From Alphaproteobacteria bacterium (GTDB lineage: Bacteria; Pseudomonadota; Alphaproteobacteria; UBA7887), in contig CBDCGL010000006.1 of assembly GCA_965216755.1 (NCBI GenBank), positions 1 through 12,279 on the forward strand: a stretch of 12,279 nucleotides of DNA, given 5' to 3'. Made by a program: the position numbers and the translations under genes. How positions within the stretch are numbered: position 1 is the stretch's first letter; every line of letters begins with the position of its first letter. This document shows, one piece after another, positions 1 to 12,279 of the stretch. The notes beneath the pieces are model-generated. The model did not search any database. It worked only from the letters and a program-made list of their open reading frames with translations, and was not told the origin of the DNA.

Positions 1-125
1 AGCGCAATCCGCCGCCTGCGACAACGCATTCCATCCCGTCGAAGTCGTATTCGGGGAACATTGACAACCAGTTAGCGTGAGCCAAGTAGGCGGCATTTTG
101 CGCCGGGCTATTCCGCGGCGCGCAA

Positions 126-156
126 CAATCTCGTTGCAATATCGTAACAATATCGT
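126..156 (+). repeat. Three direct repeats CAAT(C/A)TCGT with 11-bp period
   Basis: CAATCTCGT at 126, CAATATCGT at 137 and CAATATCGT at 148. Confidence 0.8.
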
Positions 157-185
157 GTAAGAATTCGCTTACTGACCTACACAGA

Positions 186-240
186 GCGACCTGCCCGTCG
201 ACCCCCCGATGCGACACCAAGGGCAGGTCGCGTTGTATTT
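186..240 (+). terminator. Long stem-loop followed by a U-rich tail (terminator or sRNA 3' end)
   Basis: GCGACCTGCCC (186-196) pairs perfectly with GGGCAGGTCGC (221-231). Inner GTCG/CGAC stem with a C6 loop. GTTGTATTT follows. Confidence 0.5.
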
Positions 241-374
241 GCCCCCACCGCAACTGCTTCGTTGGTCTGGCGCCCCATCACCATATGCTTGATTTGTTTG
301 TAGCTAGTTGCATAACAGTGGCAACCACCTGCGGCCATGCTATTTATAATTGCAGTTAAGCCCGGCAATTCTTC

Positions 375-427
375 GTAACCCAGTGGGGCAGATTTTTCTT
401 GACAATTGTGACCCAATGGGGTAGTAA
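375..427 (+). promoter_or_regulatory. TA promoter with two palindromic operators
   Basis: GTAACCCAGTGGGGCA (375-390) and GTGACCCAATGGGGTA (408-423) each have a CCCA-N-TGGG core. They flank TTGACA (399-404), and TAGTAA lies 17 nt downstream of it (422-427). Confidence 0.75.
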
Positions 428-771
428 TGCGCTCACTACTTATCACGGTCGTCGAAACTAAACCCTTTATGGCCGAAGCGAAGGGCCGCATGAAGGCCAC
501 GGAGGTAGAAGCCCTCATCGATTATCTTGCGGCAAGACCCGAGGCGGGCGATGTTATTCAGGAAACTGGTGGCCTTCGCAAGATAAGATTTGGGATAGGA
601 AATAGGGGCAAAAGTAGCAGCGTTCGCGTAGTCTACTACTATTACAACGATACGATGCCTCTGTTCCTGCTAACCGTGTTTGCAAAGAATGAGAAGAATA
701 ATCTATCCAAAGCGGAGCGCAACGCGTTAGCAAAAGTTGCCCGAGCGTTGCGAGATAGTTATGGAGAGTGA
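427..771 (+). CDS. higB: Type II toxin, RelE/ParE superfamily (HigB2-like)
   Basis: Motifs ITVVET, GDVIQETGGLRKIR, GKSSSVRVVYYY and LLTVFAKNEKNNLS. The toxin lies upstream of an HTH antitoxin. Confidence 0.9.
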   Translation: MRSLLITVVETKPFMAEAKGRMKATEVEALIDYLAARPEAGDVIQETGGLRKIRFGIGNRGKSSSVRVVYYYYNDTMPLFLLTVFAKNEKNNLSKAERNALAKVARALRDSYGE

Positions 772-774
772 GCG

Positions 775-1083
775 GTGAGCAGCAAAGCATTCAAGAAAAT
801 TATGGACGGCCTCACGGATGCCTTGGCCTATGCTGAAGGCGATGAGAGCAAAGGCAAAGCTCACGAGGTCGAGGTGCCGCAAGTGGATGTGCGGGCCGCG
901 CGAAAGAAGCTTGGGCTATCGCAAGACAAATTTGCCGCTGCTTTCAAGATTAGCGCATCAACCCTCCGCAAATGGGAACAAGGATCTCGTCATCCCCAAG
1001 GACCGGCTCAAGTGCTCCTTGCCGTGATCGATAAGGAGCCGGAAGCTGTAAAGCGCGCGTTGGGAGCGAAGGTAGCGGCCTAA
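775..1083 (+). CDS. higA: XRE-family HTH antitoxin (HigA-like)
   Basis: DVRAARKKLGLSQDKFAAAFKISASTLRKWEQGSRHPQGPAQVLL is a HigA2-type HTH. GTG start 3 nt after the toxin stop, with GGAG upstream. Confidence 0.9.
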   Translation: MSSKAFKKIMDGLTDALAYAEGDESKGKAHEVEVPQVDVRAARKKLGLSQDKFAAAFKISASTLRKWEQGSRHPQGPAQVLLAVIDKEPEAVKRALGAKVAA

Positions 1084-1291: not shown

Positions 1292-2065
1292 TCACCAACC
1301 ACACAATTCCCGTATCTTGTTTCTTCTGTCGATTTCGATCTTGGCCAACGCTTCCTCGAACACCATCGAGCGAAACATTGGCCGCGGCACGTAACTCATG
1401 CTTACTTCCACAGACGCGTCATCGTTTGGAATACCATCACCAAGTTTTTCGCCTGATTTGGCGACAACACGAATACCGATTTCGATCTCATAGATACTTT
1501 TGAAATGCTGACCCAGGCTGTTCTGATAGTAGACAACAATGCGCAATCTTGATGCGTCGTGTGATTCACGGGTAGGATCCGTTGCAATGCGATGCAGATT
1601 GAGCCGATAGGCTTCACGGACATCATCGAAGAAATGAGTGATAAGATTGTTCCCGAAGCTAAGTGATAAGTCACTTACATCATCGCCCGATCTGATAAAC
1701 GGGATGATGTCGGGATCGAAGCGCATTGGTATTACTTTGTGATCATCTATACTTGAATGCCGGAGGATTACCTCTCCATCAACTTGAACAGATATGGCTG
1801 GCGCGTTTCCAACATTCGTTAGCAGCAGATTGACCGCCATGTTTCGTCTTTCTGGCCCAAACGTTGCTCCAATACTGATTTTTTTGACCCCGATACCAAT
1901 AACAGGGTTTAACGAGAGGCGAGATTGACGTGACGTCGCCCTTAGTATCCCTCTAGTCCAATACGCATAAAAAGCCGTGATAATTGCGAGAGAGACTGTA
2001 GCCAGGGTCGTGACCGCGCCGGAGTTACTGTTCAGTGCTTCAATGAGCATTTCAAAGTAGGTCAT
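1292..2065 (-). CDS. Hypothetical protein with an N-terminal membrane anchor and a beta-rich soluble domain (257 aa)
   Basis: Start chosen at ATG 2065 (AGGGTG upstream) rather than 2134. Hydrophobic helix VTTLATVSLAIITAFYAYW, then alternating beta-strand patterns (LLLTNVGNAPAISVQV). Visibly more AT-rich than the core genes. Confidence 0.8.
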   Translation of the reverse strand: MTYFEMLIEALNSNSGAVTTLATVSLAIITAFYAYWTRGILRATSRQSRLSLNPVIGIGVKKISIGATFGPERRNMAVNLLLTNVGNAPAISVQVDGEVILRHSSIDDHKVIPMRFDPDIIPFIRSGDDVSDLSLSFGNNLITHFFDDVREAYRLNLHRIATDPTRESHDASRLRIVVYYQNSLGQHFKSIYEIEIGIRVVAKSGEKLGDGIPNDDASVEVSMSYVPRPMFRSMVFEEALAKIEIDRRNKIRELCGW

Positions 2066-2216
2066 CGCGGTCACCCTGCAACAACAATTTATCAATCCGC
2101 CGGTCGACGTAGCGTGCCGCACCGCCAGGGCCATTTTCTTCGATCAGCGCTTGGGCGCGTTGTTCGATGTTGGGTTCAGCGCCGCCTCCAGAGCGGTTGG
2201 CATTCCGGAAAGTCAT
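2052..2216 (-). pseudogene. Small helical ORF, possibly a truncated remnant
   Basis: IEQRAQALIEENGPGGAARYVDRRIDKLLLQGD reads as an amphipathic helical protein and ends inside the start of the 257-aa gene. The family resemblance is from memory only. Confidence 0.35.
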
Positions 2217-2270
2217 GAACATATTTGGGTCAACGCTTTCGTACAGACTTACTGAAAGGACCCTAACTAT

Positions 2271-2522
2271 ATGGCGATAGATCGAATGAAGGAACTCCAG
2301 GACCGCTGTAAGCAGCTCGGCATCAGCGCAGAGCCCAACGGCTTTAGGCCCAGTAGCAATGCCATTGTTCCAATTCCGGTGACTGAGCCGGAGCTTGAGC
2401 GGCGCATCGGCGAGAAAGAAAGCCACATCAGAGAAAATCGACTTTGGTGGGTCGCCCTGGCCTCAGCTGTGGCCAGTGGGATCAGTGCGGCCACAGCCCT
2501 GTGGGCTGTCATCGCGAACTGA
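2271..2522 (+). CDS. Small protein with a C-terminal transmembrane helix (83 aa)
   Basis: AAAGGA SD at 2255-2260. C-terminal LWWVALASAVASGISAATALWAVI. Confidence 0.7.
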   Translation: MAIDRMKELQDRCKQLGISAEPNGFRPSSNAIVPIPVTEPELERRIGEKESHIRENRLWWVALASAVASGISAATALWAVIAN

Positions 2523-2609: not shown

Positions 2610-2647
2610 AAATAGAAAAGGCGTCAGGTCGATCACAACCTGACGCC
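2610..2647 (-). terminator. Rho-independent terminator of the leftward replication operon
   Basis: GGCGTCAGGT (2620-2629) / ACCTGACGCC (2638-2647) stem, followed on the minus strand by TTTTCTATTT. It lies ~35 nt after the stop at 2683. Confidence 0.75.
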
Positions 2648-2682
2648 CTTGGGGGTCGGCGGAGTATCACAAACACCGCCCG

Positions 2683-3027
2683 TTATGCCATCTCCTTCCG
2701 GTATGCATACTTTGCTCTTCGGTGGCGCTCCACCTCGTGCAGGGCCATTCCTTTCATCGCGTCGTGATAGGCGACCATGAATTTGTATTCCAGCTTGCTG
2801 GGATTTCCGTCATTAGCTGCCCGTAAAACTTCACACAGTTTGTTCTTCGCTGCGGTCAGTCGCCGACGCTGCGGTCTGAAGCTTCGATGTGGTGACCACT
2901 TGAGGGCAGCCTGGAATTCCCTCCAAAGAATTAGTCCATCGAACATCCCTTTCTGGTATGGGTCTTCAAGATTGTCGTTTTGCGATTGCAACCAGATAAC
3001 GTTGCTTCCGCGTGGTGCTGTAGTCAT
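2683..3027 (-). CDS. Hypothetical protein (114 aa)
   Basis: Strong SD AAGGAGAG upstream of the ATG. Co-oriented with the primase operon and followed by a terminator. Confidence 0.7.
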   Translation of the reverse strand: MTTAPRGSNVIWLQSQNDNLEDPYQKGMFDGLILWREFQAALKWSPHRSFRPQRRRLTAAKNKLCEVLRAANDGNPSKLEYKFMVAYHDAMKGMALHEVERHRRAKYAYRKEMA

Positions 3028-3104
3028 CGTTTTTCTCTCCTTCGTTTGTCACCGTCATTAAGGAAAAGTCAGGTCAGCGGGGACGATGGGAACCGCCGGC
3101 CATC

Positions 3105-3470
3105 TCAATATCTCCCGTAGGTCCGACGTTGCGCCTGCGCTTTCTCAATGGTCCTTTGAACCATTGCCCCTGGCACCTTCCGTCCGTGCACTGATAGAGA
3201 GATCAAGAAAGCGGTAAGGAAGTCGTCGAGGTCGACGCCTGGCTTGGTCGCAATGTGCATCGGCCAGTCGAGTATCTTGGGTTTTGACGGGTCGGCGGTG
3301 TGGTAAACCCGTTCGAGTTCCGTCTTCTTGATGTAGTACTGCTCGTCTCGGCGCTCTACGCCGTGGGTCGTGACCGACCATTGTCGTCCTTGCCAGAGCA
3401 CCTTGCTCAGTCTGTGTCTGGCGCGTACGCGATTTGTCGAGTGGTAGATTGGGTTGTTGAATTGTTGCAT
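3105..3470 (-). CDS. Hypothetical phage/satellite-type protein (121 aa)
   Basis: Starts 3 nt after the primase stop. Conserved-looking motifs WQGRQWSVTTHGVE and DWPMHIATKPGVDLDDF. Confidence 0.8.
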   Translation of the reverse strand: MQQFNNPIYHSTNRVRARHRLSKVLWQGRQWSVTTHGVERRDEQYYIKKTELERVYHTADPSKPKILDWPMHIATKPGVDLDDFLTAFLISLSVHGRKVPGAMVQRTIEKAQAQRRTYGRY

Positions 3471-3473
3471 TGC

Positions 3474-5756
3474 TCAGGTGTCCTTTTTGCCTGGGGTTTC
3501 GTCGTCAAATGCGTTGTCGAGGTCCTCGGGGGAAACATCCTCGATCTCGCGGGCGGAGATCTTGACCGTTCGGCCTTTTCGCGTCTTGTTGTTCGGGAAC
3601 TTGTCAAAGACGTGGATGATGTAATCGCTGGCCTCGTATTCGCCGGGGACAAGCTGCTTCTTCAGAGTTGTCTCCCCGTAATTGTCGTGACCGACACATT
3701 CCTCAATGACATTCCGCAGTGACATTTCAAACGGCCGGTCCGATAGGTCGGCGTCACCAACAAGCTCGTTGGCGAGCCCCGTCCACCACATTTTCTGTTC
3801 GTCTTTTTCGCTGAGCTGTGCGTTCGGGTCGAAGAAAAATGCCAAGCTGTCTTTTTTAATCCCATCGGCGTCATGGCCAAGGGGGACGACCCGGCCACGC
3901 ATGCATAGCTTGTCCTTCCACCCCCGGCCGCGTCTTGCTTTCACGCTTGTCAGCCAAGTTTGAAATTGCGTTTTGTCAGCATCAGTAGAGGTGGCCGACC
4001 AAAGGAGATCGACGGCGGCCGACGTCGCCGATGAACCCCGAACGCCGCGGGAGGGGTCTTTGCCACTGTGATGAACCCCGAACGTGAAGCAGTCGAAGGT
4101 GTCCCGGATTGCATCCATCCACTTGGTCAATTCACTGGCATCTTGCGCCGAGTTCTCGTCCAGCTGACCGGCCCACCGGGCGACCGTATCAATGACCACC
4201 AAGCCGACGTTGCCACATTTGCGCTTACAGGCCGTCAGGAACGCTTGCCGGGTCCCCTCGTCCCGAAAATTTGGTAACTCTGAGAAGATATGAACCCGCG
4301 GGCACGGCTTCGTATCGTTGGCCTCCAGCCAAGCGGCAACACGTAGTTTGATATCGTCCTCACCTTCACCAGTGAGGTAGATGACATCAGGCGTTGAGGT
4401 CGTTTTGTTTCCGGCCCAATCCATACCTCTTGCGACCCGTTGAAGGAGATCCAAGATCACGAAGCTTTTGAATGCAGACCATGATCCGTAGAGAATTCCC
4501 GTGCCCTTTTCCGGCAGGACATTCGCAATAAGCCAACGGGGATCGGGCATCGCCAAATAGTCATTCTCGCTACGACACCGCTCAATCCAGTACTCGGCGT
4601 CAGCGGGCGTCAGCTCCTTTGACTTGTTGTCATCATCGTTGTCATTGGCGTTTACGAGCCTGGCATGCGCGAGTTCTGGCTCGCCCAGTGCTTCCGCATA
4701 TCCCACCATCCGCGCTCGAAAACTCCTAGGCGCATGACTGTTGTGAGCATAGGCGTAAGCGTTTCGGATCTTCCGGTCTAACTCGCGCGGCTCCCATTCG
4801 GGCTCACAACGCGGATTGAAGTAGGCGTCCATCAGCTCCAGGCATTTGTCCCGGGAGATGCTGAAGTCACGCACGTCGCACGCCACGTCATAGGTTCGTT
4901 GGTCGCCACCTTTGCCTTCGATCGCCGGAGCGGTCGACCTCAAGTAAGCCATGACGCTTTCGATGTCGTACAGATCGTCATACGCCTCGAATTTCCGGCT
5001 TCGATCTGTCTCGGGTGTGGCTTCTTTCAGCCGTTGAACCAACCATTCGGGGGCAGCCGTCGGTTTGCTGCCATCCGGCAAAGGCGCATAAACTTTCACG
5101 TAGCCACCGAGCCCGCGCGTATCGACGCAGGGGCCAAGCTTGCAGGCACTATTACTGGTTGGGGCGGGTGTGGTCACGAATAGGTGCCTGCCGCCAGATG
5201 GACTGTCTTGATGGCAGGCACTCGGGACTTCTTCGCCTCCCTGGGAGACCATGGTCTTCAGGGTCTCCGCGCCACTGACACCGTCCTTTGTGTCTAGGTC
5301 AACGGCCATCAAATGGCCGGAGCCGTCGGCGACTTCATGCCCCATAGCAGCACCGAGGTCGTGCCCCTCGTCAATCCAGCCATCGATCACTTTGATGTCG
5401 TCTGTGAGGATCGCTTTCCAGCTGACGCCGGGGATCGGCATTTTGGTGCGCGCCGTCAGTGGTAGAAGCGGGATACCATGAGCCACCCAAGTCCGGGCCC
5501 AGCGCTTCAGGTCGGCCCGGTCGATCGGATCTTGGAGGTTGACGCCTGGAGGCGGTTCATTAGCCGGATTACCAAAGTACTGAAGACCAAAATCAAAGTC
5601 ATGTGTCAAAATATCAAAAGATGCATTGAGTAATTGATCAGATTGATCTTGACATTTCGAGCTGATGATACTAGTTTGTCTTTCAGTTTTCATTGTCATC
5701 GTCCTTTTTGAACCCCCGGTTGCTTCCCTGACCGGGGGTTTTCTCTTTCTATTCAT
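3474..5756 (-). CDS. Bifunctional DNA primase/polymerase (Prim-Pol, AEP) + PriCT-like helical domain + AAA_25/RepA-like SF4 helicase
   Basis: AEP motifs AVDLDTKDG, SPSGGRHLF and VDTRGLGGYV. Helical domain FNPRCEPEWEPRELDRKIRNAY. Walker A variant GSWSAFKS, Walker B LVVIDT, and HHSGKD...RGSSA. The start is either 5756 (ATGA overlap with the xis stop) or 5693 (AAAGGA SD 8 nt upstream). Confidence 0.92.
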   Translation of the reverse strand: MNRKRKPPVREATGGSKRTMTMKTERQTSIISSKCQDQSDQLLNASFDILTHDFDFGLQYFGNPANEPPPGVNLQDPIDRADLKRWARTWVAHGIPLLPLTARTKMPIPGVSWKAILTDDIKVIDGWIDEGHDLGAAMGHEVADGSGHLMAVDLDTKDGVSGAETLKTMVSQGGEEVPSACHQDSPSGGRHLFVTTPAPTSNSACKLGPCVDTRGLGGYVKVYAPLPDGSKPTAAPEWLVQRLKEATPETDRSRKFEAYDDLYDIESVMAYLRSTAPAIEGKGGDQRTYDVACDVRDFSISRDKCLELMDAYFNPRCEPEWEPRELDRKIRNAYAYAHNSHAPRSFRARMVGYAEALGEPELAHARLVNANDNDDDNKSKELTPADAEYWIERCRSENDYLAMPDPRWLIANVLPEKGTGILYGSWSAFKSFVILDLLQRVARGMDWAGNKTTSTPDVIYLTGEGEDDIKLRVAAWLEANDTKPCPRVHIFSELPNFRDEGTRQAFLTACKRKCGNVGLVVIDTVARWAGQLDENSAQDASELTKWMDAIRDTFDCFTFGVHHSGKDPSRGVRGSSATSAAVDLLWSATSTDADKTQFQTWLTSVKARRGRGWKDKLCMRGRVVPLGHDADGIKKDSLAFFFDPNAQLSEKDEQKMWWTGLANELVGDADLSDRPFEMSLRNVIEECVGHDNYGETTLKKQLVPGEYEASDYIIHVFDKFPNNKTRKGRTVKISAREIEDVSPEDLDNAFDDETPGKKDT
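5649..5677 (+). promoter_or_regulatory. Sigma70-type promoter antisense to the primase gene
   Basis: TTGACA (5649-5654) - 17 nt - TAGTTT (5672-5677). Confidence 0.6.
5684..5748 (+). ncRNA. Predicted counter-transcribed antisense RNA (~65 nt)
   Basis: Bounded by the antisense promoter and a plus-strand terminator. Complementary to the SD and the ATGs at 5699 and 5693 of the primase mRNA. Ends are estimated. Confidence 0.55.
5711..5748 (+). terminator. Rho-independent terminator on the antisense strand
   Basis: Perfect 10-bp stem AACCCCCGGT (5711-5720) / ACCGGGGGTT (5731-5740), then TTCTCTTT. There is no U-tract in the minus direction. Confidence 0.75.
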
Positions 5757-5959
5757 GGCATGGCCTCCGCCGTCTCTTTGGTTTCACTGGCCGTATCGAG
5801 CATTCGGTCCAAGGCCGCCACGGGCACAAAAAACCGATTACCGATACGAATAGTCGGGATGTCCCCCTTCTTGGCGGCTGCATAGGCGGTTGGTGCCGAC
5901 ATTCCCAGGAACCGACGCGCAGCCTCTTTCAGGGGGATCGCTTTACGTTCGTCGCTCAT
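5753..5959 (-). CDS. Excisionase/AlpA-like winged HTH protein (HTH_17-like)
   Basis: IPLKEAARRFLGMSAPTAYAAAKKGDIPTIRIGNRFFVPVAALDRML. Strong SD AAGGAG. First gene of the primase operon. Confidence 0.88.
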   Translation of the reverse strand: MSDERKAIPLKEAARRFLGMSAPTAYAAAKKGDIPTIRIGNRFFVPVAALDRMLDTASETKETAEAMP

Positions 5960-5994
5960 AAAATCTCTCCTTGAGTTCTAACTTGTCCGGAATT

Positions 5995-6022
5995 AGTATC
6001 GCAAAAACTCAGAAAAAGTCAA
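5995..6022 (-). promoter_or_regulatory. Putative promoter of the xis-primase operon
   Basis: Minus-strand TTGACT (6022-6017) - 16 nt - GATACT (6000-5995), in the divergent intergenic region. Confidence 0.55.
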
Positions 6023-6078
6023 TTAAACGCGCTCCATCTGAGCGACGTTCGAACCGGACCGGTAAAGGATTGAAAAGA

Positions 6079-6717
6079 ATGGCAAAACCAGGGAGGCCGG
6101 CGGGGTCGGGAAAGAAGAGTTCGGCAATCATGATCCGGATGGCGCCGGACCTGCGCGAAGCGCTCGACAAAGCGGCCAAAGCGGATGGGTGCACGATGAC
6201 TGCGGAAGTCGAGCGTCGCCTGCGCGCCACTTTCGACCCCCTGACGGAGAAGACGTGGGCGGACGGCATCGAACTCGCACTCGCCAGCACGCCACAGTCT
6301 TATGGGCTGCTATTGCTGATTGCTGACTTGGTGGATCGTGTGCAGGTCACGTGCATTGGCACGTGGCACAAGGATGCGTTTGCTCGTCAGAAGGTGCGAG
6401 AGGCCATCATGCTCGTGCTCGACGCCCTGTTGCCCGAGCCCGCAGAGGGGATGCCAGCGCCGCAGCCAAAAAAAGGCTCAACGGCATGGGCGCTTGGCCT
6501 CGACCCCGCCCTGTCCAACTTCGTGAGCGCTGTGGAGCAGGTGTTGCAGAAGCCCGAAACAATCCGCGGGATGCTGCGCGATGATGTGCCGTACTGGCCG
6601 GCGCCATCAGGAACTACTCTCCGCTATGTGGCTATTCACGAAAAGCTGGGTAAAGAGTTGGTCCACGAATTGGCACTCTCTCTTCATCGAAAGTGGCCTC
6701 AAAATAGGACAGAATAA
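6079..6717 (+). CDS. Arc-like ribbon-helix-helix regulator with an extra C-terminal helical domain (212 aa); probable repressor
   Basis: AIMIRMAPDLREALDKAAKADGCTMTAEVERRL matches the Arc pattern. ATG 6079 has an AAAGGA SD. Divergent from xis. Confidence 0.8.
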   Translation: MAKPGRPAGSGKKSSAIMIRMAPDLREALDKAAKADGCTMTAEVERRLRATFDPLTEKTWADGIELALASTPQSYGLLLLIADLVDRVQVTCIGTWHKDAFARQKVREAIMLVLDALLPEPAEGMPAPQPKKGSTAWALGLDPALSNFVSAVEQVLQKPETIRGMLRDDVPYWPAPSGTTLRYVAIHEKLGKELVHELALSLHRKWPQNRTE

Positions 6718-6849
6718 CTGATCCATATTCGTCGCGAGGGGCCGCGACGAATGGCGACGAATAGATGCAAAGAATAACTAAGTCATTGGTTTATAAAGGA
6801 AAGAGTCGGCGCGAAGGGCGCGACGAATAATACTTAACAGCAATTATAG

Positions 6850-6899
6850 CGACCAGGGGGCGGGGGTGGTGTGAGCGTTAGCGAACACCCCCCTGGTCG
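6850..6899 (+). other. Central hairpin of the origin (ssi/sso-like)
   Basis: CGACCAGGGGG (6850-6860) / CCCCCTGGTCG (6889-6899). An inner GGTGT/ACACC stem closes the loop GAGCGTTAGCGA. Confidence 0.65.
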
Positions 6900-7009
6900 A
6901 TAAGCCAATGTTCAAGAGATGTGAATGGGAATGGGTCATCCAGATTTAATTCGTCGCGACACACACACTCTAGGACGAATAAATCGCGACGAATCCAATT
7001 CCTATTTTT

Positions 7010-7022
7010 TATCAATAGGTTA
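7010..7022 (+). promoter_or_regulatory. IHF-binding consensus site
   Basis: TATCAATAGGTTA is an exact WATCAANNNNTTR match. One-mismatch copies lie at 6779-6791 (-), 7112-7124 (-) and 7291-7303 (+). Confidence 0.6.
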
Positions 7023-7555
7023 AGCAGATTTCGAGATTCTATTCGTCGCGAGGGTCCGCGACGAATACAAAACGGCCGAGTATGCCCCGAGCAAGGTGCC
7101 CTTTTTCCGGATAAGTCTTTGAAAGTCCGTACGAATATCGTTTAGGGATTGAGCGCTTGCGGCGCGCAAGGGCCAAGAACCCGCCAAACAAACCCGCCGC
7201 TGCTCCAAAAATTTCGCGGAGGCAATGGCCGCTAAAGGTCACCGCGATCGCGCGGACTTCCCGCGCAATTTCCGCCTAAATATGGTTCCGGATCAATGAG
7301 TTAGGTCCTCCGGGCCACCCCGAGTACCTGCGAAATCGCCCGCCCACTCACCCACACCCAGGCCGCCGCGCCTTGGCTATTTCAATTGCCCCCAATCGGC
7401 CTTTGATGCCCCAAAACCCGCAGAATTCTGCGCCCTTCCGGAGCCATGCACGCCACGCATACCGACAGTAGCGTCAACATGCTTGAGGTAGTTGACAATT
7501 ATTCGGCTAGAACCCATGTTTATTGCGGGACACAGGCTTGAGAAGGATGGCCACA

Positions 7556-8227
7556 ATGGCTCGAAACCGCCAAAAAGCAGTCGCTTATTTCCGCACATCG
7601 AGCGCCGCGAACGTCGGCGAGGCCAAGGACACGCTTGCCCGGCAGCGCGCGGCGGTAACCGTTTACGCAAAAGCCAACGGCATCGAGATTGTCGGCGAGT
7701 TCTACGATGCCGCGGTCTCTGGCGCCGACCCCGTCGATGCCCGCCCGGGCTTCGCAGAGCTCCTTGGCCGCATTGCAGGCAATGGCGTGGGCATGGTGCT
7801 TGTCGAGGACCCTTCACGCTTCGCCCGTGATCTGATGGTCCAAATGACCGGGCACGAGATGCTTAAGCGAATGTGCGTCGATTTGGTCGCTGTGAACGCC
7901 CCTGAACATTTCCTCGAAGACACTCCCACGGCCACACTGGTCCGGCAGGTCCTGGGGGCAATCAGCCAGTTTGAGAAGGCACAGCTGGTCATGAAGCTCA
8001 AGGCGGCCAGAGACCGCAAGAAGGCCGAGACAGGCCGCTGTGGGGGCCGTAGGCCCGTTCCAGCCGCGACGGTCAAGGAAGCCCGACGCTTGGCGCGTCG
8101 CAACCCCAAGACCGGTAGGGTCCGGTCACTGCGAAGGATCGCCAAGGAGCTCGCGGATCTTGGCCATCTGGGCCCCTCGGGCAACGAGTACGGTGCCGAA
8201 AGCGTCAAACGCATGCTGGCCCGCTGA
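7556..8227 (+). CDS. Small serine recombinase (resolvase/invertase family) with a C-terminal HTH
   Basis: AVAYFRTSS catalytic motif, DAAVSGA, RPGFAELL, VEDPSRFARD, and C-terminal SLRRIAKELADLGH. ATG 7556 has an AAGGA SD; 7547 is an alternative start. Confidence 0.92.
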   Translation: MARNRQKAVAYFRTSSAANVGEAKDTLARQRAAVTVYAKANGIEIVGEFYDAAVSGADPVDARPGFAELLGRIAGNGVGMVLVEDPSRFARDLMVQMTGHEMLKRMCVDLVAVNAPEHFLEDTPTATLVRQVLGAISQFEKAQLVMKLKAARDRKKAETGRCGGRRPVPAATVKEARRLARRNPKTGRVRSLRRIAKELADLGHLGPSGNEYGAESVKRMLAR

Positions 8228-8231
8228 CGTT

Positions 8232-8299
8232 GCCCGTACAGCCACGCTAAGGCATTGATTTGACCTGGGTGCCCGCCACCTCAGCGGCCCTGTACGGGC
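8232..8299. repeat. 10-bp inverted repeat enclosing an exact IHF consensus
   Basis: GCCCGTACAG (8232-8241) / CTGTACGGGC (8290-8299). AATCAATGCCTTA on the minus strand at 8248-8260. Confidence 0.6.
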
Positions 8300-8607
8300 C
8301 TCTGTGGGCCCCGAATTCAGCATAATGCGGCACCGTGCGCGGCCCCCGGCATGCCGGGAAGTCAGGGACCCCTGCACCCAAGAGAGGTCGCCCACGCAAA
8401 GAAAGTGGATTTTTGCGCAAAATCTTCCTGCGTTTTCGACCCGGTCTTTGAATACCGCCGCCCCAGCGCATTCAGATCAAACCCGATCTCGAAATATATC
8501 TGGGGTCAAAATCTCCGAAATCCTCCCGTTTTTCCCCACCCCTGGCCTGCTCGGGCGCTCCTCGTGGATGCCCAATATTCCTATGATCAATATGTACGAT
8601 ATTTCTA

Positions 8608-8636
8608 TTGACTGCATCATTATCCATTGGGACAAT
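8608..8636 (+). promoter_or_regulatory. Putative sigma70 promoter of the rightward operon
   Basis: TTGACT (8608-8613) - 17 nt - GACAAT (8631-8636), with a TGn extension, in an AT-rich patch. Confidence 0.65.
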
Positions 8637-8670
8637 GAGGGGAATATGAAGCGAACAAGGGACGAGATTG

Positions 8671-8991
8671 ATGTTGGCGACTGTCCAGAGTTGGTTCAGT
8701 GGAGAGCTTGAAGAGGGGTCTTGGGACACCTTCCGAGATCGTTTGACTGCGCTCTTCGACGACCCGACGGCAGAGAACGCTGAGGCGATCGTCATTGCAG
8801 CCGACCACCTGTTCAGACAGGCCGACCAGGGAACCAATTCCGGAGTAAAGGTGGCCGATATCGAAGCTGCGGCGCGAGCCCTTGAAACTCTAGCGCTCGA
8901 CCCGTCGGTACCGGATCTGTTGGCCGTCCGGGCGGGCTCGTTGCTCGGCTCACGTCAGGTGTGGAAGCGAGGGCTGCGCCATGGCAGCTGA
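8671..8991 (+). CDS. Hypothetical helical protein, paralogue A
   Basis: First long ORF after the promoter. Aligns with the next ORF. Start uncertain (8668 TTG or 8671 ATG). Confidence 0.8.
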   Translation: MLATVQSWFSGELEEGSWDTFRDRLTALFDDPTAENAEAIVIAADHLFRQADQGTNSGVKVADIEAAARALETLALDPSVPDLLAVRAGSLLGSRQVWKRGLRHGS

Positions 8992-9316
8992 CGTTCACAC
9001 GCCCCCCAATCAGCCGCATGGTGCCGGTGGTGCTGTCGGAGCCGTGGCGCGTAAGGTTTGGCCTGAATTTCACGGTCGCCTGATCGCGTTGCTATCGGAC
9101 CCGACGCCTCTGACTGCCGCCGAGGCAGTGGCCGCTGCGGAATATCTCTTTGCCCTCCGCGATGCCAACACCCATGCCGTCTCCAGCGACGATGTGAAGG
9201 TGGCCGCGGACGCGCTCGCGACCATAGCCCTTCATCCGTCTGTGCCCGACGATGTCGCCCTGCGCGCCGGAATTCTCCTCGATAGCCGCCGCCGTTGGCG
9301 CAGCAAGGAGGGTTGA
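8981..9316 (+). CDS. Hypothetical helical protein, paralogue B
   Basis: Overlaps the previous stop, with a GAGGGG SD. Shares RLxALxxDPT and ALxPSVPDxxAxRAGxLLxSRxxW with paralogue A. Confidence 0.82.
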   Translation: MAADVHTPPNQPHGAGGAVGAVARKVWPEFHGRLIALLSDPTPLTAAEAVAAAEYLFALRDANTHAVSSDDVKVAADALATIALHPSVPDDVALRAGILLDSRRRWRSKEG

Positions 9317-9319
9317 ACG

Positions 9320-9736
9320 ATGGCCGCCCAGATAAGTCCGCAAGCGCCCATGCGACTGATTGACCTGAAGCGGCAGCCCACCGAGGCGGAGTTAGCCCGG
9401 GCTCGCAAGAACGTCTCAGCCAATCCGGTGATCGCGACGGTCGTGTATGAGTTGGTTGAAGTCGAACCACCGTCTTTTGACCGCCATACAAAGCAGACTT
9501 TCCCGGGCAAGCGTTTGGCCGATGTTCGCGCCTACGCCGGCCGAAAGGCTTGGCCGGGCGCCCTGGTCGCCGCCACGGGTGGTCTACCGCCCATCAACGA
9601 TCCGGCCCAATCGCCCGAACTTCGCCGAGTGTTTGAGAATTTGGCCGTGGACGGCTTCACGCACGTGCAGGCCCCCCACTCATACCCGCGTCCAATCTGG
9701 GACGTCATCGATGGCTCCGAACCCTGGGGCCGCTAA
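9320..9736 (+). CDS. Hypothetical protein (138 aa)
   Basis: AAGGAGG SD. Starts 3 nt after the previous stop, in the operon direction. Confidence 0.78.
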   Translation: MAAQISPQAPMRLIDLKRQPTEAELARARKNVSANPVIATVVYELVEVEPPSFDRHTKQTFPGKRLADVRAYAGRKAWPGALVAATGGLPPINDPAQSPELRRVFENLAVDGFTHVQAPHSYPRPIWDVIDGSEPWGR

Positions 9737-9755
9737 CCACTGAAGGAGAAATCCA

Positions 9756-10427
9756 ATGACTACCGAAACACAAACCAAACCGCAAAGGATCGAAGATCAT
9801 CCGGTCCACCAGCAACCTCATGTCAGGCTCTTTGCCCCCTGGCTGCGCTACGTTGACGAGGAGTTGGTGTATGTCATCGGCCGGCTCCGGGGCTCCGTCC
9901 AACGCAACTTCGGTCGTCTAGACCGCGTGCCGGGACCCGACGCGATTGAAAGTGCTGTTGATCACATCGCCAATCAGCGGACCGAGCAGGCTTGCACCGT
10001 TCTCCGCAATGAATGTTCAGGCGATCCGCTACCAGTTGTTACGCAAATTGATGCAGTTTGGTTGCATTTAGCGCAAAATCACTTGATGCCCCGCCAAAAG
10101 GATGAGCCCAAAGCATGGGCCAAGCTGGCGACCAATGCCGTGACCAAGGCTATCGCCGATCTGGTCAATGACGAAATCATGGCCCTCCGCGACCGGAAAA
10201 CCGATCGCGCCGCTCGGCTTGAAGACCAGCGTATCGCCCGGGCCAAGATTGCCGCCAAGACCCTACCGAAGGTCGAAGCATTGATGGCTGAACTTGGCGC
10301 CTTTCGGCAAATCCCAACGCCGCCATTCGTCACGGAAGAGAGTGTCCCCCAAGCCATTGAGGCCTTGGGCGATGTACAGCGCGTTCTGACGCAAGCAGCT
10401 GAACAACCGCCGACTGATAGTCAGTAA
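9756..10427 (+). CDS. Hypothetical alpha-helical/coiled-coil protein (223 aa)
   Basis: GAAGGAG SD. Long charged Ala-rich helix AIADLVNDEIMALRDRKTDRAARLEDQRIARAKIAAK. Confidence 0.82.
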   Translation: MTTETQTKPQRIEDHPVHQQPHVRLFAPWLRYVDEELVYVIGRLRGSVQRNFGRLDRVPGPDAIESAVDHIANQRTEQACTVLRNECSGDPLPVVTQIDAVWLHLAQNHLMPRQKDEPKAWAKLATNAVTKAIADLVNDEIMALRDRKTDRAARLEDQRIARAKIAAKTLPKVEALMAELGAFRQIPTPPFVTEESVPQAIEALGDVQRVLTQAAEQPPTDSQ

Positions 10428-10454
10428 CCAACTAACCAAACGGAGTGACCAAAA

Positions 10455-11207
10455 ATGTCAGAATTTAACAATGAAAATGGCGGTGGCGCCCCAGCCGCAC
10501 CTGGACCGGCCCCAACGCCAACTGAGCCCGCGGCACCAGCGCCTCAGACCATCCGGGCTCGTCCAATCAACGAGGCTCTATCACCTGCCGAGCAACATCT
10601 CCTCCGTGATGCGGCAAAGAACGCGCCCAAGGATTTTGGTGCCGGGATCAAGGCCGCGTGGGAGCAAATCAATGCTGCACAAGCCAACGCACCAACTACT
10701 ATGGTTGATCAATCAAAGCCGGCGCCAGTCCAGGGGACGCCGTATCCACAGGCGCCGGCAGAGGTCCAGGGGGTCAATTTCGACAACCTGGACCTCACTA
10801 ATTCCGAGCAACGTAGCCAGGTTGATCATGCCCTTGCTGAAGCAACCAATGGTGCTTTAACTGTCGGCCAGGTCGAAGGGATTAGCCAGGCGATCGATCT
10901 CATGCCAAGCAAACTCGAAAATCTCTGGCTGGAAAGCGAACAGAACCCCGAGGTCTTCGGCCAAAAGCTGACGGAGGTGATTGAACAAGGCGACGACCGG
11001 GTGCGGGAGACTGTGTACGGTGGCAGCGCCGACGCTTTCAAGGCGGGCATGGCTGAGATCAGTTCCGCTCTCGACAATATCGGCGCGAGTAATGAGCTCC
11101 GAGCTCAGATTAACGAGAGCCTAGTCTTGTCGGATGTCCGTGGCCACACTCAAATGCTCGCACTTGCACGCGTCGTCAACAAGCGGACGGCCCATGCTGC
11201 CGATTGA
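10455..11207 (+). CDS. Hypothetical protein, capsid-scaffolding-like (250 aa)
   Basis: GGAG SD. Pro/Ala-rich disordered N-terminus and acidic helical body. The scaffolding function is an inference. Confidence 0.7.
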   Translation: MSEFNNENGGGAPAAPGPAPTPTEPAAPAPQTIRARPINEALSPAEQHLLRDAAKNAPKDFGAGIKAAWEQINAAQANAPTTMVDQSKPAPVQGTPYPQAPAEVQGVNFDNLDLTNSEQRSQVDHALAEATNGALTVGQVEGISQAIDLMPSKLENLWLESEQNPEVFGQKLTEVIEQGDDRVRETVYGGSADAFKAGMAEISSALDNIGASNELRAQINESLVLSDVRGHTQMLALARVVNKRTAHAAD

Positions 11208-11382
11208 CCGGGATCATGTCTGGGCGAAATTCTGGACCTTCCTTCGCGCACGGGCTCCACGATCTCCCGCAGGAGCTGTCTCCCACGTCCAAAACCTTCT
11301 AAGGGACGAGCGCAAGCGAAAAGCACGGGCGAGAGCAGAGCGTAAGGCGCAGCGCAAGTTGATGAAAGCTAACAATGAGTGA
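11194..11382 (+). CDS. Small basic hypothetical protein (62 aa)
   Basis: ATG 11194 overlaps the upstream stop, and its own stop overlaps the next ATG. K/R-rich C-terminal helix. Confidence 0.6.
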   Translation: MLPIDRDHVWAKFWTFLRARAPRSPAGAVSHVQNLLRDERKRKARARAERKAQRKLMKANNE

Positions 11383-11797
11383 GGGAGCCGAACGTCTATT
11401 CGGGGCTGAGCCGGACATTGGCCAATGGCACCAACCCGAGCGGACGACTGAACAAAACCTATGGGCCGCCGTCCTCGTTCAGATGGTTGAAGATGGGCTT
11501 TCGGCGAAACCTTTGGGGCCTCATGATCACGACCGACGTATTGCCCGCAGTTGGTTCACGGACCCAGGTTTCTCGAAAGATTTCGCCATGGTGTGCGATA
11601 TGGCGGGCTTTGACCCGCAGTTCATCCGTGATCGGTTTAAGAATTTACTGGCAGAGCAAGAGGGCAATCCAACACCTCACAAACCTGGCTCACGCGTCCG
11701 GAGGATCAGCCGGCCGCCCTCAGTGTTCACTATCACTTCGATGCCTAAGCAGTCGGCGAGCCCGCTGGCACTTACGTCTCCGCAATCCTCGCTTTGA
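11375..11797 (+). CDS. Conserved phage-type hypothetical protein (possible regulator)
   Basis: Pattern EQNLWAAVLVQMVED...ARSWF...DFAMVCDMAGFDPQFIR, recalled from phage hypothetical proteins. The last ~40 aa are low complexity. Confidence 0.75.
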   Translation: MSEGAERLFGAEPDIGQWHQPERTTEQNLWAAVLVQMVEDGLSAKPLGPHDHDRRIARSWFTDPGFSKDFAMVCDMAGFDPQFIRDRFKNLLAEQEGNPTPHKPGSRVRRISRPPSVFTITSMPKQSASPLALTSPQSSL

Positions 11798-11934
11798 CCA
11801 ATCGCCTGGGCGACTGCGCCGGACGGTATGGTCAGGCAGGCCGGGTCCTCAATGTCACATTCAGGTTTCAATTCGCCAAGTGGCAGGCCATTCATGGTCA
11901 CCAGCAACGTGGCGTAGGTGATCAGCTCAAGCAT
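11677..11934 (-). CDS. Small acidic Cys-containing hypothetical protein coupled to the integrase (85 aa)
   Basis: The ATG overlaps the integrase stop by 8 nt. Hydrophobic N-terminus and 4 Cys. Overlaps the tail of the opposite-strand gene by 121 nt. Confidence 0.45.
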   Translation of the reverse strand: MLELITYATLLVTMNGLPLGELKPECDIEDPACLTIPSGAVAQAIGQSEDCGDVSASGLADCLGIEVIVNTEGGRLILRTREPGL

Positions 11935-12277
11935 TGTTCAATTCCAATCCTGGGTACTTCACAGCTTCCACCACTTCCCGCAATGCCGGCAGATCTACGC
12001 CGGCAGGGTTATAGACGCCGTAAGTGAATGATCGTTCATGGCCAACAATCAGTGCCGCGCGGTCCCGATCGATCCCGGCCCGCTCCAGGGCATTGACGAA
12101 ACACTTCCTGAATGAATGGAACACCAACCGATCGCGCGTGACGCCGCGCTGGCGGCGGAACGCGGGGAACCGGCGCGACAGGCTGTATGCCCGCTTGTTG
12201 TCTGGCCCGCCTGGTTTCAAACCGGGCCAGAGTGGCCCTGAGCCGATCGCGGCCACGTATTCCAACACACCAAGGTC
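11927..12277 (-). CDS. int: Tyrosine recombinase/phage integrase, C-terminal part (5' end outside the window)
   Basis: HSFR (HxxR), VGH and TYGVY catalytic motifs. The frame is open to the window edge (DLGVLEYV). Confidence 0.92.
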   Translation of the reverse strand, partial: DLGVLEYVAAIGSGPLWPGLKPGGPDNKRAYSLSRRFPAFRRQRGVTRDRLVFHSFRKCFVNALERAGIDRDRAALIVGHERSFTYGVYNPAGVDLPALREVVEAVKYPGLELNNA

Positions 12278-12279
12278 GA

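What the first reader, a model, noticed from the sequence alone, without database searches (positions are those of the whole stretch)
2683..12279. Candidate undescribed phage-satellite family: Arc-type switch, Prim-Pol replicon, resolvase and a 7-gene operon of unknowns
Seen: integrase, xis-primase/helicase operon, divergent regulator, iteron origin, and a promoter-led, tightly coupled operon (8671-11797) with no recognisable capsid, portal or TerL gene. Established: PICIs and P4-like satellites combine int, alpA/xis and pri-rep with helper-hijacking genes. Inference: this is a satellite whose hijacking module shows no by-eye match to Sid/Psu, CpmAB, Ccm or the cf-PICI capsid module. The integrase also sits at the far end from xis.
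Basis: partly seen in the sequence, partly recalled or inferred. Interest (0 to 1): 0.8.

Follow-up and report, generated by a model that had tools for sequence, protein, structure and literature searches.

The report
Satellite-like self-replicating genomic island fragment
This is most of a small mobile island that can probably cut itself out of a chromosome and copy itself; it resembles known phage-parasite islands, but nothing found here shows that it actually rides in phage particles.

Summary
The window is an entire 12,279-bp contig, so no flanks exist. The "integrase" is only the last 116 residues of a tyrosine recombinase, cut off by the contig end.

Confirmed parts:
- an excisionase-like HTH_17 gene coupled to a 760-aa Prim-Pol/AAA_25 primase-helicase
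- a divergent ribbon-helix-helix-like regulator
- nine copies of an 11-bp iteron within 340 bp
- a small serine recombinase
- a tightly coupled seven-gene operon with no capsid, portal, terminase, defence or conjugation match
- a HigB/HigA-like toxin-antitoxin pair left of the reported region

The same backbone (integrase, HTH_17, primase-helicase, serine recombinase, G-like gene) forms a 14.5-kb island at tRNA-Glu in the same genome. Distant relatives show tRNA–integrase–RHH, then divergent xis–helicase. So the backbone is a PICI/tycheposon-like integrative, replicative island.

The operon is not conserved. D and E match only themselves among 5.8 billion proteins. Only G has relatives, a widespread uncharacterised phage-associated family.

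Satellite status stays plausible (about 0.35) but untested. By SatelliteFinder logic it would be a three-component "Type C" element. I rate it a new member of a known kind, of moderate interest.

The parts
84..252 (.). 169-bp block shared with the chromosome (C11:3427591-3427759, 92% identity, sharp borders). It holds an inverted repeat and folds strongly on both strands. Role unknown.
   Evidence: no Rfam match; not found in the 22 other genomes of the order searched
427..771 (+). HigB/RelE-like toxin of a toxin-antitoxin pair
   Evidence: PF06296 RelE, 29.8 bits, cut-off 27; phrog_5869, 3.7e-26
775..1083 (+). HTH_3 (Xre-type) antitoxin, starting 4 nt after the toxin's stop codon
   Evidence: HTH_3, 38.2 bits; phrog_2104, 3e-24
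1292..2134 (-). Unknown 280-aa protein with one hydrophobic segment
   Evidence: no Pfam, PHROG or PADLOC match; hydropathy
2052..2426 (-). Unknown 124-aa ORF upstream of the 280-aa ORF
   Evidence: coding-like GC pattern; no family match
2617..2650 (-). Terminator-like hairpin (15 pairs) ending the xis-primase operon
2683..3027 (-). Unknown basic 114-aa protein, last gene of the replication operon
   Evidence: no family match
3105..3470 (-). Unknown basic 121-aa protein downstream of the primase-helicase
   Evidence: no family match
3474..5756 (-). Prim-Pol + AAA_25 (RepA-like) primase-helicase, the presumed replicase
   Evidence: (phrog_906, 9.1e-37); nearest relative only 36% identical
5753..5959 (-). 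HTH_17 excisionase/AlpA-like protein, translationally coupled to the primase-helicase
   Evidence: 35.9 bits, cut-off 27; phrog_66 'excisionase and transcriptional regulator', 5.7e-6
6079..6717 (+). Divergent regulator: ribbon-helix-helix-like N-terminus plus a conserved C-terminal domain (212 aa from the ATG at 6079)
   Evidence: weak hits; family alignment A3; AF2 gives two helices at pLDDT 74-81 and is low elsewhere; divergent pairing with xis is conserved in L054 and L055
6727..7066 (.). Iteron array: 9 copies of TCGCGACGAAT-like words, partly as palindromic pairs, flanking a lower-GC stretch. Presumed origin of replication.
7523..8227 (+). Small serine recombinase (resolvase/invertase type); likely start is the ATG at 7547
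   Evidence: Resolvase, 92.2 bits; phrog_95, phrog_125 'DNA invertase'
8608..8636 (+). Sigma-70-like promoter candidate (TTGACT-17-TG-GACAAT), 32 nt before the operon
   Evidence: position only; not above chance window-wide
8671..8991 (+). Operon gene A (about 106 aa, acidic), paralog of B
8981..9316 (+). Operon gene B (111 aa), paralog of A, overlapping A by 11 nt
   Evidence: 49% identity over 82 aa, E 2e-18
9320..9736 (+). Operon gene C (138 aa), no relative found
9756..10427 (+). Operon gene D (223 aa), orphan
   Evidence: self only
10455..11207 (+). Operon gene E (250 aa, pI 4.6, Pro/Ala-rich N-terminus), orphan. Weak language-model likeness to viral hypothetical proteins.
   Evidence: self only
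11194..11382 (+). Operon gene F (62-82 aa, very basic), doubtful gene overlapping E and G
11375..11797 (+). Operon gene G (140 aa): four-helix core (residues 21-100) of a widespread uncharacterised family, seen in phages, prophage-like elements and related islands
11927..12277 (-). C-terminal 116 residues of a tyrosine integrase, truncated by the contig end

Best explanation
The contig holds most of a small integrative, self-replicating genomic island of the PICI / tycheposon kind. It is a 'hitcher' that has its own integration, switch and replication modules but no transfer machinery.

Shown by homology:
- a tyrosine integrase (fragment)
- an HTH_17 excisionase/AlpA-like gene coupled to a Prim-Pol/AAA_25 primase-helicase
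- a divergent RHH-like regulator
- an iteron array
- a small serine recombinase
- a HigBA-like addiction pair

Inferred mechanism:
1. The RHH protein represses the divergent xis-primase promoter.
2. On derepression, Int and Xis excise the island from a tRNA-type site.
3. The primase-helicase fires replication at the iterons.
4. The serine recombinase resolves multimers.

Transfer must depend on something else. A helper phage is the most likely vehicle, which would make the island a phage satellite. I put that specific step at only about 0.35.

The seven-gene operon A-G is lineage-specific cargo of unknown role. Its last gene belongs to a phage-associated family, and E has scaffold-like composition. 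A role in dealing with a phage (hijacking or interference) is therefore the leading guess, no more.
For: Iteron clustering: 9 of 11 matches lie within 340 bp.

A paralogous island in the same chromosome has the same backbone: integrase, HTH_17, primase-helicase (32% identity), serine recombinase and a G-like gene. It sits next to tRNA-Glu. A 17-bp repeat of the tRNA 3' end lies 14.5 kb away, and a 23-bp internal repeat lies near both ends. No capsid or terminase domain was found among the 10 of its proteins scanned.

Of the 5 RHH homologs found in 400 class genomes:
- 2 sit divergently next to an xis homolog with an integrase on the other side
- 3 sit within about 3 kb of an AAA_25 helicase gene
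- 4 have a tRNA gene on the fetched stretch

The replicase is phage-like rather than plasmid-like. tblastn at 1e-10 hit 716 of 50,697 phage records against 17 of 72,556 plasmid records. All hits are partial (at most 37% coverage), and 500 of the 716 phage records are Mycobacterium phages.

The G family occurs next to TerL, a major capsid protein, MuF and a tape measure in L035, and in a phage replication module in L036. Its model matches uncharacterised Caudovirales proteins in BFVD: 1 row at E<=0.001, and 12 of the first 15 rows at probability 1.00.

No relaxase, T4SS or FtsK-type domain was found in any window ORF. No VirB4 family (PF03135) hit was found in the genome. Two Terminase_6N loci show that phage-like regions exist in the assembly.

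Published precedent for this gene set:
- tycheposon hallmark genes include a tyrosine recombinase, xis, primase/helicase and a small serine recombinase (preprint 10.1101/2020.12.28.424599, passages read)
- six subgroups of virion-packaged marine elements carry both a serine and a tyrosine recombinase and no major capsid gene (PMC9618062, section 5)
Against: - No small terminase, capsid-morphogenesis, portal or other packaging gene, and no helper-sensing gene, was recognised.
- No helper is known.
- No DNA word of 16 or more bases beyond chance is shared with the phage-like regions of the assembly, so there is no shared cos or pac site.
- The contig is incomplete at both ends. The integrase is truncated, the att sites are unseen, and genes to the left of position 1 are unknown.
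- Integration of this element itself is therefore not shown, only that of its paralog.
- RHH + iterons + resolvase + toxin-antitoxin is also a classic plasmid set.
- The operon is not conserved anywhere. It cannot be called a family trait.
- The language-model hint for E is weak: recognition 1731, below the level that known families usually reach, and the nearest named cluster scores only 0.85.
- Depth in three public runs of one study was about 2 for window pieces, against 6-26 for the chromosomal look-alike block. This suggests the element is in a minority of cells or in another strain. Contig depths are not copy numbers.
Confidence: 0.5

Rival explanations
1. It is a plasmid or an episomal integrative plasmid. 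The Prim-Pol/RepA-like helicase and iterons are the replicon, the RHH protein controls copy number or partition, the serine recombinase resolves multimers, HigBA is the addiction module, and the tyrosine recombinase fragment is a remnant.
For: All these plasmid-typical parts are present. The sequence is a contig of its own with no long match to the chromosome. The reading frame of the integrase fragment stays open when the contig's two ends are read as a circle. That is weak evidence: my own rough estimate puts it at about a 1-in-20 chance event.
Against: - There is no terminal overlap, although the same assembly left a 10.6-kb overlap on its circular contig C8.
- No joint linking the two ends was listed in the laid contigs of 3 runs.
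- No near DNA match was found among 72,556 plasmid records.
- Replicase relatives are far more frequent in phage records than in plasmid records.
- The HTH_17/xis-primase coupling and the paralog's tRNA integration point to an integrative element.
- Depth is low relative to the chromosome-like block.
Confidence: 0.15
2. It is the early/lysogeny arm of a complete temperate phage. The structural genes lie beyond the left end of the contig or on another contig.
For: The contig is truncated. The replicase and G families are phage-associated. A distant relative sharing integrase, resolvase and G-like genes (L035) carries TerL, a capsid protein, MuF and a tape measure. The assembly holds phage-like contigs such as C3.
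Against: - The paralogous island with the same backbone is bounded at 14.5 kb, and no structural gene was found among its scanned proteins.
- No contig end in the assembly carries the missing integrase N-terminus. DUF6538 hits lie only inside C11.
- No sequence links C6 to C3 or to the C11 prophage region.
- The left part of the window holds a toxin-antitoxin pair and unknown cargo, not late genes.
Confidence: 0.15
3. It is a cargo-carrying or decaying island with no phage link. The A-G operon is ordinary accessory cargo, for example an unrecognised defence or stress system. Transfer, if any, is by vesicles, transformation or chance transduction.
For: The operon is unique and unrelated to any satellite module. 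The paralogous island carries an AbiV-like HEPN gene as cargo. Cargo-type tycheposons share the same hallmark genes as the PICI-like ones (preprint passages). Type C elements are ambiguous.
Against: No PADLOC match for 6 operon proteins or for 4 other unknowns. G's family is phage-associated. The operon looks like a late or morphogenetic operon: tightly coupled small genes, tandem paralogs, and one acidic low-complexity protein.
Confidence: 0.2

Closest known systems
PICIs (phage-inducible chromosomal islands), as defined for SatelliteFinder (PMC10085698, section 17, read)
   Same: It has an integrase, an AlpA/excisionase-type HTH regulator coupled to a primase-replicase, a divergent repressor-like gene, an origin with iterons, a size class of 10-15 kb, and no tail or lysis genes.
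   Different: No small terminase and no capsid-morphogenesis gene was recognised. This gives 3 of the 5 core components, the ambiguous 'Type C'. The integrase lies about 6 kb from the switch and is convergent with the operon. The replicase is Prim-Pol + AAA_25, with at most 36% identity to anything found. There is an extra serine recombinase.
Tycheposons of Prochlorococcus (preprint 10.1101/2020.12.28.424599, passages read)
   Same: Same hallmark set: tyrosine recombinase, xis, primase/helicase, small serine recombinase and a regulator. The paralog integrates at a tRNA gene. The layout is modular, with lineage-specific cargo.
   Different: The host lineage differs. Homology to tycheposon hallmark genes was not tested. 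The PICI-like tycheposons carry terS or a major capsid gene, which were not found here.
VEIMEs, virion-encapsidated integrative mobile elements of marine bacteria (PMC9618062, section 5, read)
   Same: They have no major capsid gene, but have primase/helicase, AlpA and excisionase genes. Six subgroups carry both a serine and a tyrosine recombinase. Many of their genes have no database homologs.
   Different: VEIMEs are defined by being found as concatemers inside virus particles. No such evidence exists for this element. Their supplementary datasets could not be consulted.
P4-like satellites (PMC10085698, section 16 passages)
   Same: Integrase, an AlpA-type regulator and a fused primase-helicase.
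   Different: No Psu, Delta, Sid or Ash/epsilon match. The primase-helicase belongs to a different family. The gene order differs.
Iteron plasmids with RepA-like helicase, resolvase and toxin-antitoxin modules
   Same: Iterons, an RHH regulator, a resolvase and a HigBA-like pair.
   Different: It has a tyrosine integrase and an excisionase-like gene. It has an integrated paralog at a tRNA gene. Circular closure is not seen. Its replicase relatives are mostly in phages.

Membership tests
PICI (SatelliteFinder model) | Integrase | tested here: met
   C-terminal fragment only: Pfam 22.4 bits, below the 27.1 cut-off; phrog_1 at 7.5e-5; 47% identity to a full integrase of the same genome
PICI (SatelliteFinder model) | Regulation module (alpA, merR or stl homolog) | tested here: met
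   HTH_17, 35.9 bits; phrog_66 'excisionase and transcriptional regulator'. That HTH_17 covers AlpA is recalled, not taken from a call.
PICI (SatelliteFinder model) | Primase-replicase module | tested here: met
   Prim-Pol + AAA_25; phrog_906 at 9.1e-37
PICI (SatelliteFinder model) | Small terminase subunit | tested here: not met
   No Pfam, PHROG or NCBIfam match in any ORF scanned. SatelliteFinder's own profiles were not available.
PICI (SatelliteFinder model) | Capsid morphogenesis gene | tested here: not met
   Same searches, no match. For E there is only a weak language-model lead to a T7 capsid-assembly cluster (0.85, 130 features).
cfPICI | Own major capsid, portal and head-tail connector genes | tested here: not met
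   No match in the window. Genome-wide there is no PF05065 or PF04860 hit.
P4-like satellites | Psu, Delta, Sid and Ash/epsilon | tested here: inconclusive
   No PHROG or Pfam match for any operon protein. Dedicated P4 profiles were not run.
Tycheposons | Flanked by a full and a partial tRNA gene | not testable with these tools
   The contig ends before any att site. The feature is met for the paralogous island: tRNA-Glu plus a 17-bp repeat 14.5 kb away.
Tycheposons | Hallmark genes homologous to the tycheposon set | not tested
   Only functional equivalence was seen (tyrosine recombinase, xis, pri/hel, small serine recombinase). No tycheposon sequences were compared.
VEIME / any phage satellite | DNA packaged in helper-phage particles | not testable with these tools
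   Needs particle DNA. The public runs found are low-depth contigs of one study.
Plasmid | Closed circular replicon | tested here: inconclusive
   No terminal overlap, while circular C8 of the same assembly has one. No end-to-end joint among the laid contigs. Coverage is too low to exclude a circle.
ICE / IME | Relaxase, coupling protein or T4SS genes | tested here: not met
   No such Pfam domain in any window ORF scanned. No PF03135 hit in the genome.

The most novel reading that the evidence does not exclude
The island is a true phage satellite of a lineage in which none has been described. Its orphan A-G operon would then be a new helper-exploitation module: the tandem paralogs A and B and the acidic, scaffold-like E would redirect capsid assembly or packaging, and the G-family protein would act on phage DNA or gene expression. 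It would work without any terS, Sid/Psu, Cpm or capsid homolog.
Probability: 0.15. Interest if true: 0.7.

Novelty: new member of a known kind. Interest (0 to 1): 0.33.

Why it matters
If it is a satellite, it would add a sequence-novel example whose presumed hijacking genes match nothing known. It would also give a first functional handle on a widespread uncharacterised phage protein family (G).

As it stands, it mainly illustrates a known problem. Thousands of integrase + AlpA/xis + primase-replicase islands exist whose means of transfer is unknown. Here the key part, the operon, is a singleton, so comparative genomics cannot help and only experiments can.

The pair of elements in one genome is a convenient system for asking what the variable module does. 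Both share the backbone but carry different cargo; the tRNA-Glu copy is cleanly bounded.

Tried and rejected
**Circular closure.** No terminal direct or inverted overlap was found. The integrase frame stays open across a notional junction, but the upstream 84 codons resemble no integrase. I did not take this as evidence of a circle.

**Missing integrase N-terminus.** It was not found on any contig. tblastn with the paralog gave nothing, and DUF6538 hits lie only inside C11.

**Near DNA matches.** None in plasmids, phages or 40 relatives.

**Related loci.**
- The search for related loci with the primase-helicase in genome contigs: 42 pattern matches, none confirmed.
- IMG/VR scans with C, B and G: 9, 421 and 7 pattern matches, none confirmed.
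- tblastn of G and E against 50,697 phage records: no match.

**Other protein and RNA searches.**
- PDB sequence searches for D, E, C, the RHH protein and the primase-helicase: nothing below E 0.2.
- ESM Atlas for D: no usable hit.
- PADLOC: none for the 10 proteins scanned.
- Rfam: no match at E<=0.1.
- tRNA scan of the window: none.

**Fold searches with the G model.** PDB Foldseek gave nothing at E<=0.001; the best rows were DnaA DNA-binding domain and sigma region 4, at E about 0.6-1. VIA-wide gave a best Z of 4.5, which is uninformative for a helical domain. I therefore do not name a fold for G.

**RHH protein model.** It is too poor (mean pLDDT 53) for a fold search, so none was run.

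**Shared cos or pac site with resident phage-like regions.** Only chance-level 16-mers were found.

**Laid public contigs.** Some parts of the window had no cover, and no piece ran over the ends. At depth of about 2 this shows nothing about the ends.

**Not used.** Supplementary files were not opened. These include the SatelliteFinder model definitions and VEIME datasets S3-S6, and they may bear on 'matches no described satellite type'.
Full report
**What the window is.** The window is the whole of contig C6 (12,279 bp) of an 11-contig assembly. The assembly has one 4.85-Mb contig and ten contigs of 4-26 kb. C6 has no terminal direct or inverted overlap. Another small contig, C8, carries a 10.6-kb self-overlap typical of a circular molecule. 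The only DNA shared between C6 and the rest of the assembly is a 169-bp block (window 84-252, 92% identity to C11:3427591-3427759). No near match exists in 72,556 plasmid records, 50,697 phage records or 40 related genomes.

**Gene content.** From left to right, the window holds the following.
- A HigB/RelE-like toxin (427-771) and an HTH_3 antitoxin (775-1083).
- Two unknown minus-strand ORFs (1292-2134 and 2052-2426).
- A minus-strand operon ending at a 15-pair terminator-like hairpin (2650-2617). It consists of an HTH_17 excisionase/AlpA-like gene (5753-5959; 35.9 bits), a 760-aa Prim-Pol + AAA_25 protein (3474-5756; 61.3 and 103.4 bits) and two small basic unknowns.
- Divergent from it, a 212-aa protein (from the ATG at 6079) with a ribbon-helix-helix-like N-terminus.
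- A long intergenic region in which 9 of the window's 11 matches to TCGCGACGAAT (up to 2 mismatches) lie within 6727-7066. Across the whole window, 4 of 200 shuffles reached 11 matches, so it is the clustering that is telling.
- A small serine recombinase (7523-8227; Resolvase 92.2 bits).
- A promoter-like site at 8608-8636, then seven coupled ORFs A-G (8671-11797).
- On the minus strand, the last 116 residues of a tyrosine integrase (11927-12277), running off the contig end.

The GC pattern by codon position supports these calls, except for F and some overlapping ORFs.

**The RHH claim.** Pfam gives nothing. PHROGs gives six weak hits (best 1.4e-4) and NCBIfam gives DDP1 at 0.022, all over residues 46-92 of the long form. 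A search of 400 genomes of the class found 5 weak homologs (E 1.2e-5 to 9e-4). Aligned, they share a strand-helix-helix-like N-terminal pattern and a second conserved region. AF2 on that six-row alignment gave two helices at pLDDT 74-81 and little else (mean 53). 'Arc-type' is therefore plausible but not established.

**The backbone recurs.** The chromosome of the same genome has a paralogous set:
- a full 504-aa integrase (47% identical to the window fragment over 83 residues)
- an HTH_17 protein
- a 691-aa Prim-Pol/AAA_25 protein (32% identity by HMMER; 29% by tblastn)
- a serine recombinase
- a G-like gene

This set lies directly after tRNA-Glu. The last 17 bp of the tRNA recur 14.5 kb downstream, and a 23-bp word recurs just inside both ends. 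It is thus a bounded island of about 14.5 kb. Of the 10 proteins scanned there, none had a capsid, terminase or conjugation domain. One inside the island is AbiV/HEPN-like. The Panacea and HEPN/RES genes lie outside the repeats.

In other genomes the arrangement tRNA - integrase - RHH, then divergent xis - helicase, shows up around the RHH homologs:
- 2 of 5 have a divergent xis homolog and an integrase match on the other side. One of these sits at the same tRNA-Glu, next to the same host genes.
- 3 of 5 have an AAA_25 gene within about 3 kb.
- 4 of 5 have a tRNA gene on the fetched stretch.

Relative to that layout, the window's integrase is displaced by about 5 kb (iterons, resolvase, operon) and inverted.

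**How rare it is.**
- The primase-helicase has only 13 relatives at E<=1e-30 among the 8000 candidates scored from 5.8 billion proteins, itself included. The nearest is 36% identical over 58% of the query.
- At E<=1e-20 it was found in 4 of 400 other genomes of the class.
- D and E returned only themselves.
- phmmer of A-F and four other unknowns against all ORFs called in seven related loci gave no hit at E<=1.
- tblastn of all window proteins against the rest of the genome found nothing for A-F.

A and B are tandem paralogs (49% identity, E 2e-18).

**Gene G.** G is the exception to this rarity. An exhaustive HMMER search found 343 proteins at E<=1e-3, the best non-self hit at 1.4e-10 and 42% identity. 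The family has an invariant W and D and a conserved core. It has no real Pfam or PHROG home: 2 of 51 members hit DUF6280 weakly, 2 of 51 hit phrog_3377 and 2 of 51 hit phrog_1065.

It occurs in 20 of 400 other genomes of the class; one of them, G261, is unpublished. Of the three G-gene neighbourhoods in other genomes whose genes were scanned (10 proteins):
- one lies in a compact element at a tRNA-Gln, with an integrase and matches to TerL, a major capsid protein, MuF and a tape measure, and a resolvase homologous to the window's (L035)
- one is a phage-type replication module (L036)
- one is next to an integrase and an AAA_25 gene (L041)

AF2 gives a confident four-helix core (pLDDT above 85 for residues 21-100). 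It matches uncharacterised Caudovirales proteins in BFVD but no solved structure convincingly.

**Phage or plasmid flavour.** At E<=1e-10 the replicase matched 716 phage records and 17 plasmid records. All matches were partial, and 500 of the phage records are Mycobacterium phages, so the contrast is inflated by redundancy. E's language-model neighbours are unnamed clusters, about half of them viral. The nearest named cluster is a T7 capsid-assembly family at 0.85. The query's recognition value is low, so this is only a lead.

The genome has no hit to HK97 capsid, TerL_ATPase, Phage_portal or VirB4 families. It has two Terminase_6N loci, one on contig C3 and one at 4.745 Mb of the chromosome. 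C3 is a diverged copy of that chromosomal region. No word of 16 or more bases beyond chance links C6 to them.

**Public reads.** Three runs of one study hold the sequence as low-depth contigs. Identical pieces cover 3543-11756 at depth of about 2. The chromosomal version of the 169-bp block has depth 6-26 in the same runs. No piece ran over the window's ends, and no joint connecting the two ends was listed. The three listed joints have sides of only 20-21 letters and belong to high-depth foreign contigs. This says only that the element is real DNA in those samples and is probably less abundant than the chromosome-like sequence.

**Interpretation.** The backbone is that of a PICI/tycheposon-like integrative, replicative island. 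The published PICI definition has five core components (PMC10085698, section 17). This element shows three of them, the 'Type C' pattern that the authors set aside as possibly satellites, other mobile elements or chance aggregates.

The combination of a tyrosine and a small serine recombinase has precedent. It occurs in tycheposon hallmark genes (preprint passages) and in six subgroups of virion-packaged marine elements (PMC9618062, section 5).

I commit to the following mechanism: a repressor-controlled switch, Int/Xis excision, iteron-primed replication by the primase-helicase, multimer resolution by the serine recombinase, and helper-dependent transfer. The first four steps are inferred from homology. 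The last has no direct support. Phage-mediated transfer is the most likely option, at roughly 0.35.

The plasmid, prophage-arm and cargo-island readings remain open, because both contig ends are unresolved and the operon is an orphan.

**Verdict.** The satellite label is a reasonable hypothesis but is not established. The 'family' claim fails for the part that would define it. I rate the element a new member of a known kind and of moderate interest.

Noticed in passing
window 84-252 and G000:C11:3427591-3427759 (L003): A 169-bp block is shared at 92% identity, with sharp borders on both sides. It holds an 11-bp inverted repeat with a 24-nt spacer and a doubled 9-mer. It folds well on both strands (z -4.3 and -4.0). 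It has no Rfam match and was not found in 22 other genomes of the order. In the chromosome it lies between an integrase N-terminal remnant and a full DUF6538-type integrase. It could be a recombination or regulatory site, or a small RNA, shared by related elements.
   Followed up: partly
G000:C11:2411051-2425547 (L030): A 14.5-kb island at tRNA-Glu has the same backbone as the window (integrase, HTH_17, Prim-Pol/AAA_25, serine recombinase, G-like gene) plus an AbiV/HEPN-like gene. It is bounded by a 17-bp tRNA-end repeat. A 23-bp repeat lies near both ends.
   Followed up: yes
L035 (G031:C3:496500-516499), about 2355-18132: A compact element of about 16 kb lies between tRNA-Gln and a DUF6538 integrase. 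It has TerL, GP7-like capsid, MuF-like, DnaT_2-like and tape-measure matches, a G-like gene and a serine recombinase homologous to the window's. It looks too small for a full tailed phage. It may be a capsid-forming satellite or a GTA-like element.
   Followed up: partly
G000 contig C8: The 26,386-bp contig overlaps itself by 10.6 kb at 99.95% identity. It is therefore a circular element of about 15.7 kb, assembled 1.7 times. Its content was not examined.
   Followed up: no
G000 contig C3 and C11:4.71-4.75 Mb: C3 (24.5 kb) carries a Terminase_6N gene. It matches a chromosomal prophage-like region at 98%, 82% and 73% identity in three segments. This suggests a second variant of that phage, or strain heterogeneity, in the assembly.
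   Followed up: partly
window 11677-11934 (-): An 85-codon ORF with a coding-like GC pattern starts 8 nt inside the end of the integrase gene and overlaps the 3' end of gene G convergently by 121 nt. It has no family match. Whether it is a real gene is undecided.
   Followed up: partly
L036 (G353:C1:293000-312999), 10029-11072 (-): A 347-aa protein next to the G-like gene has Hint and LAGLIDADG homing-endonuclease matches. This suggests an intein-containing or homing-endonuclease gene in a phage-type replication module.
   Followed up: no
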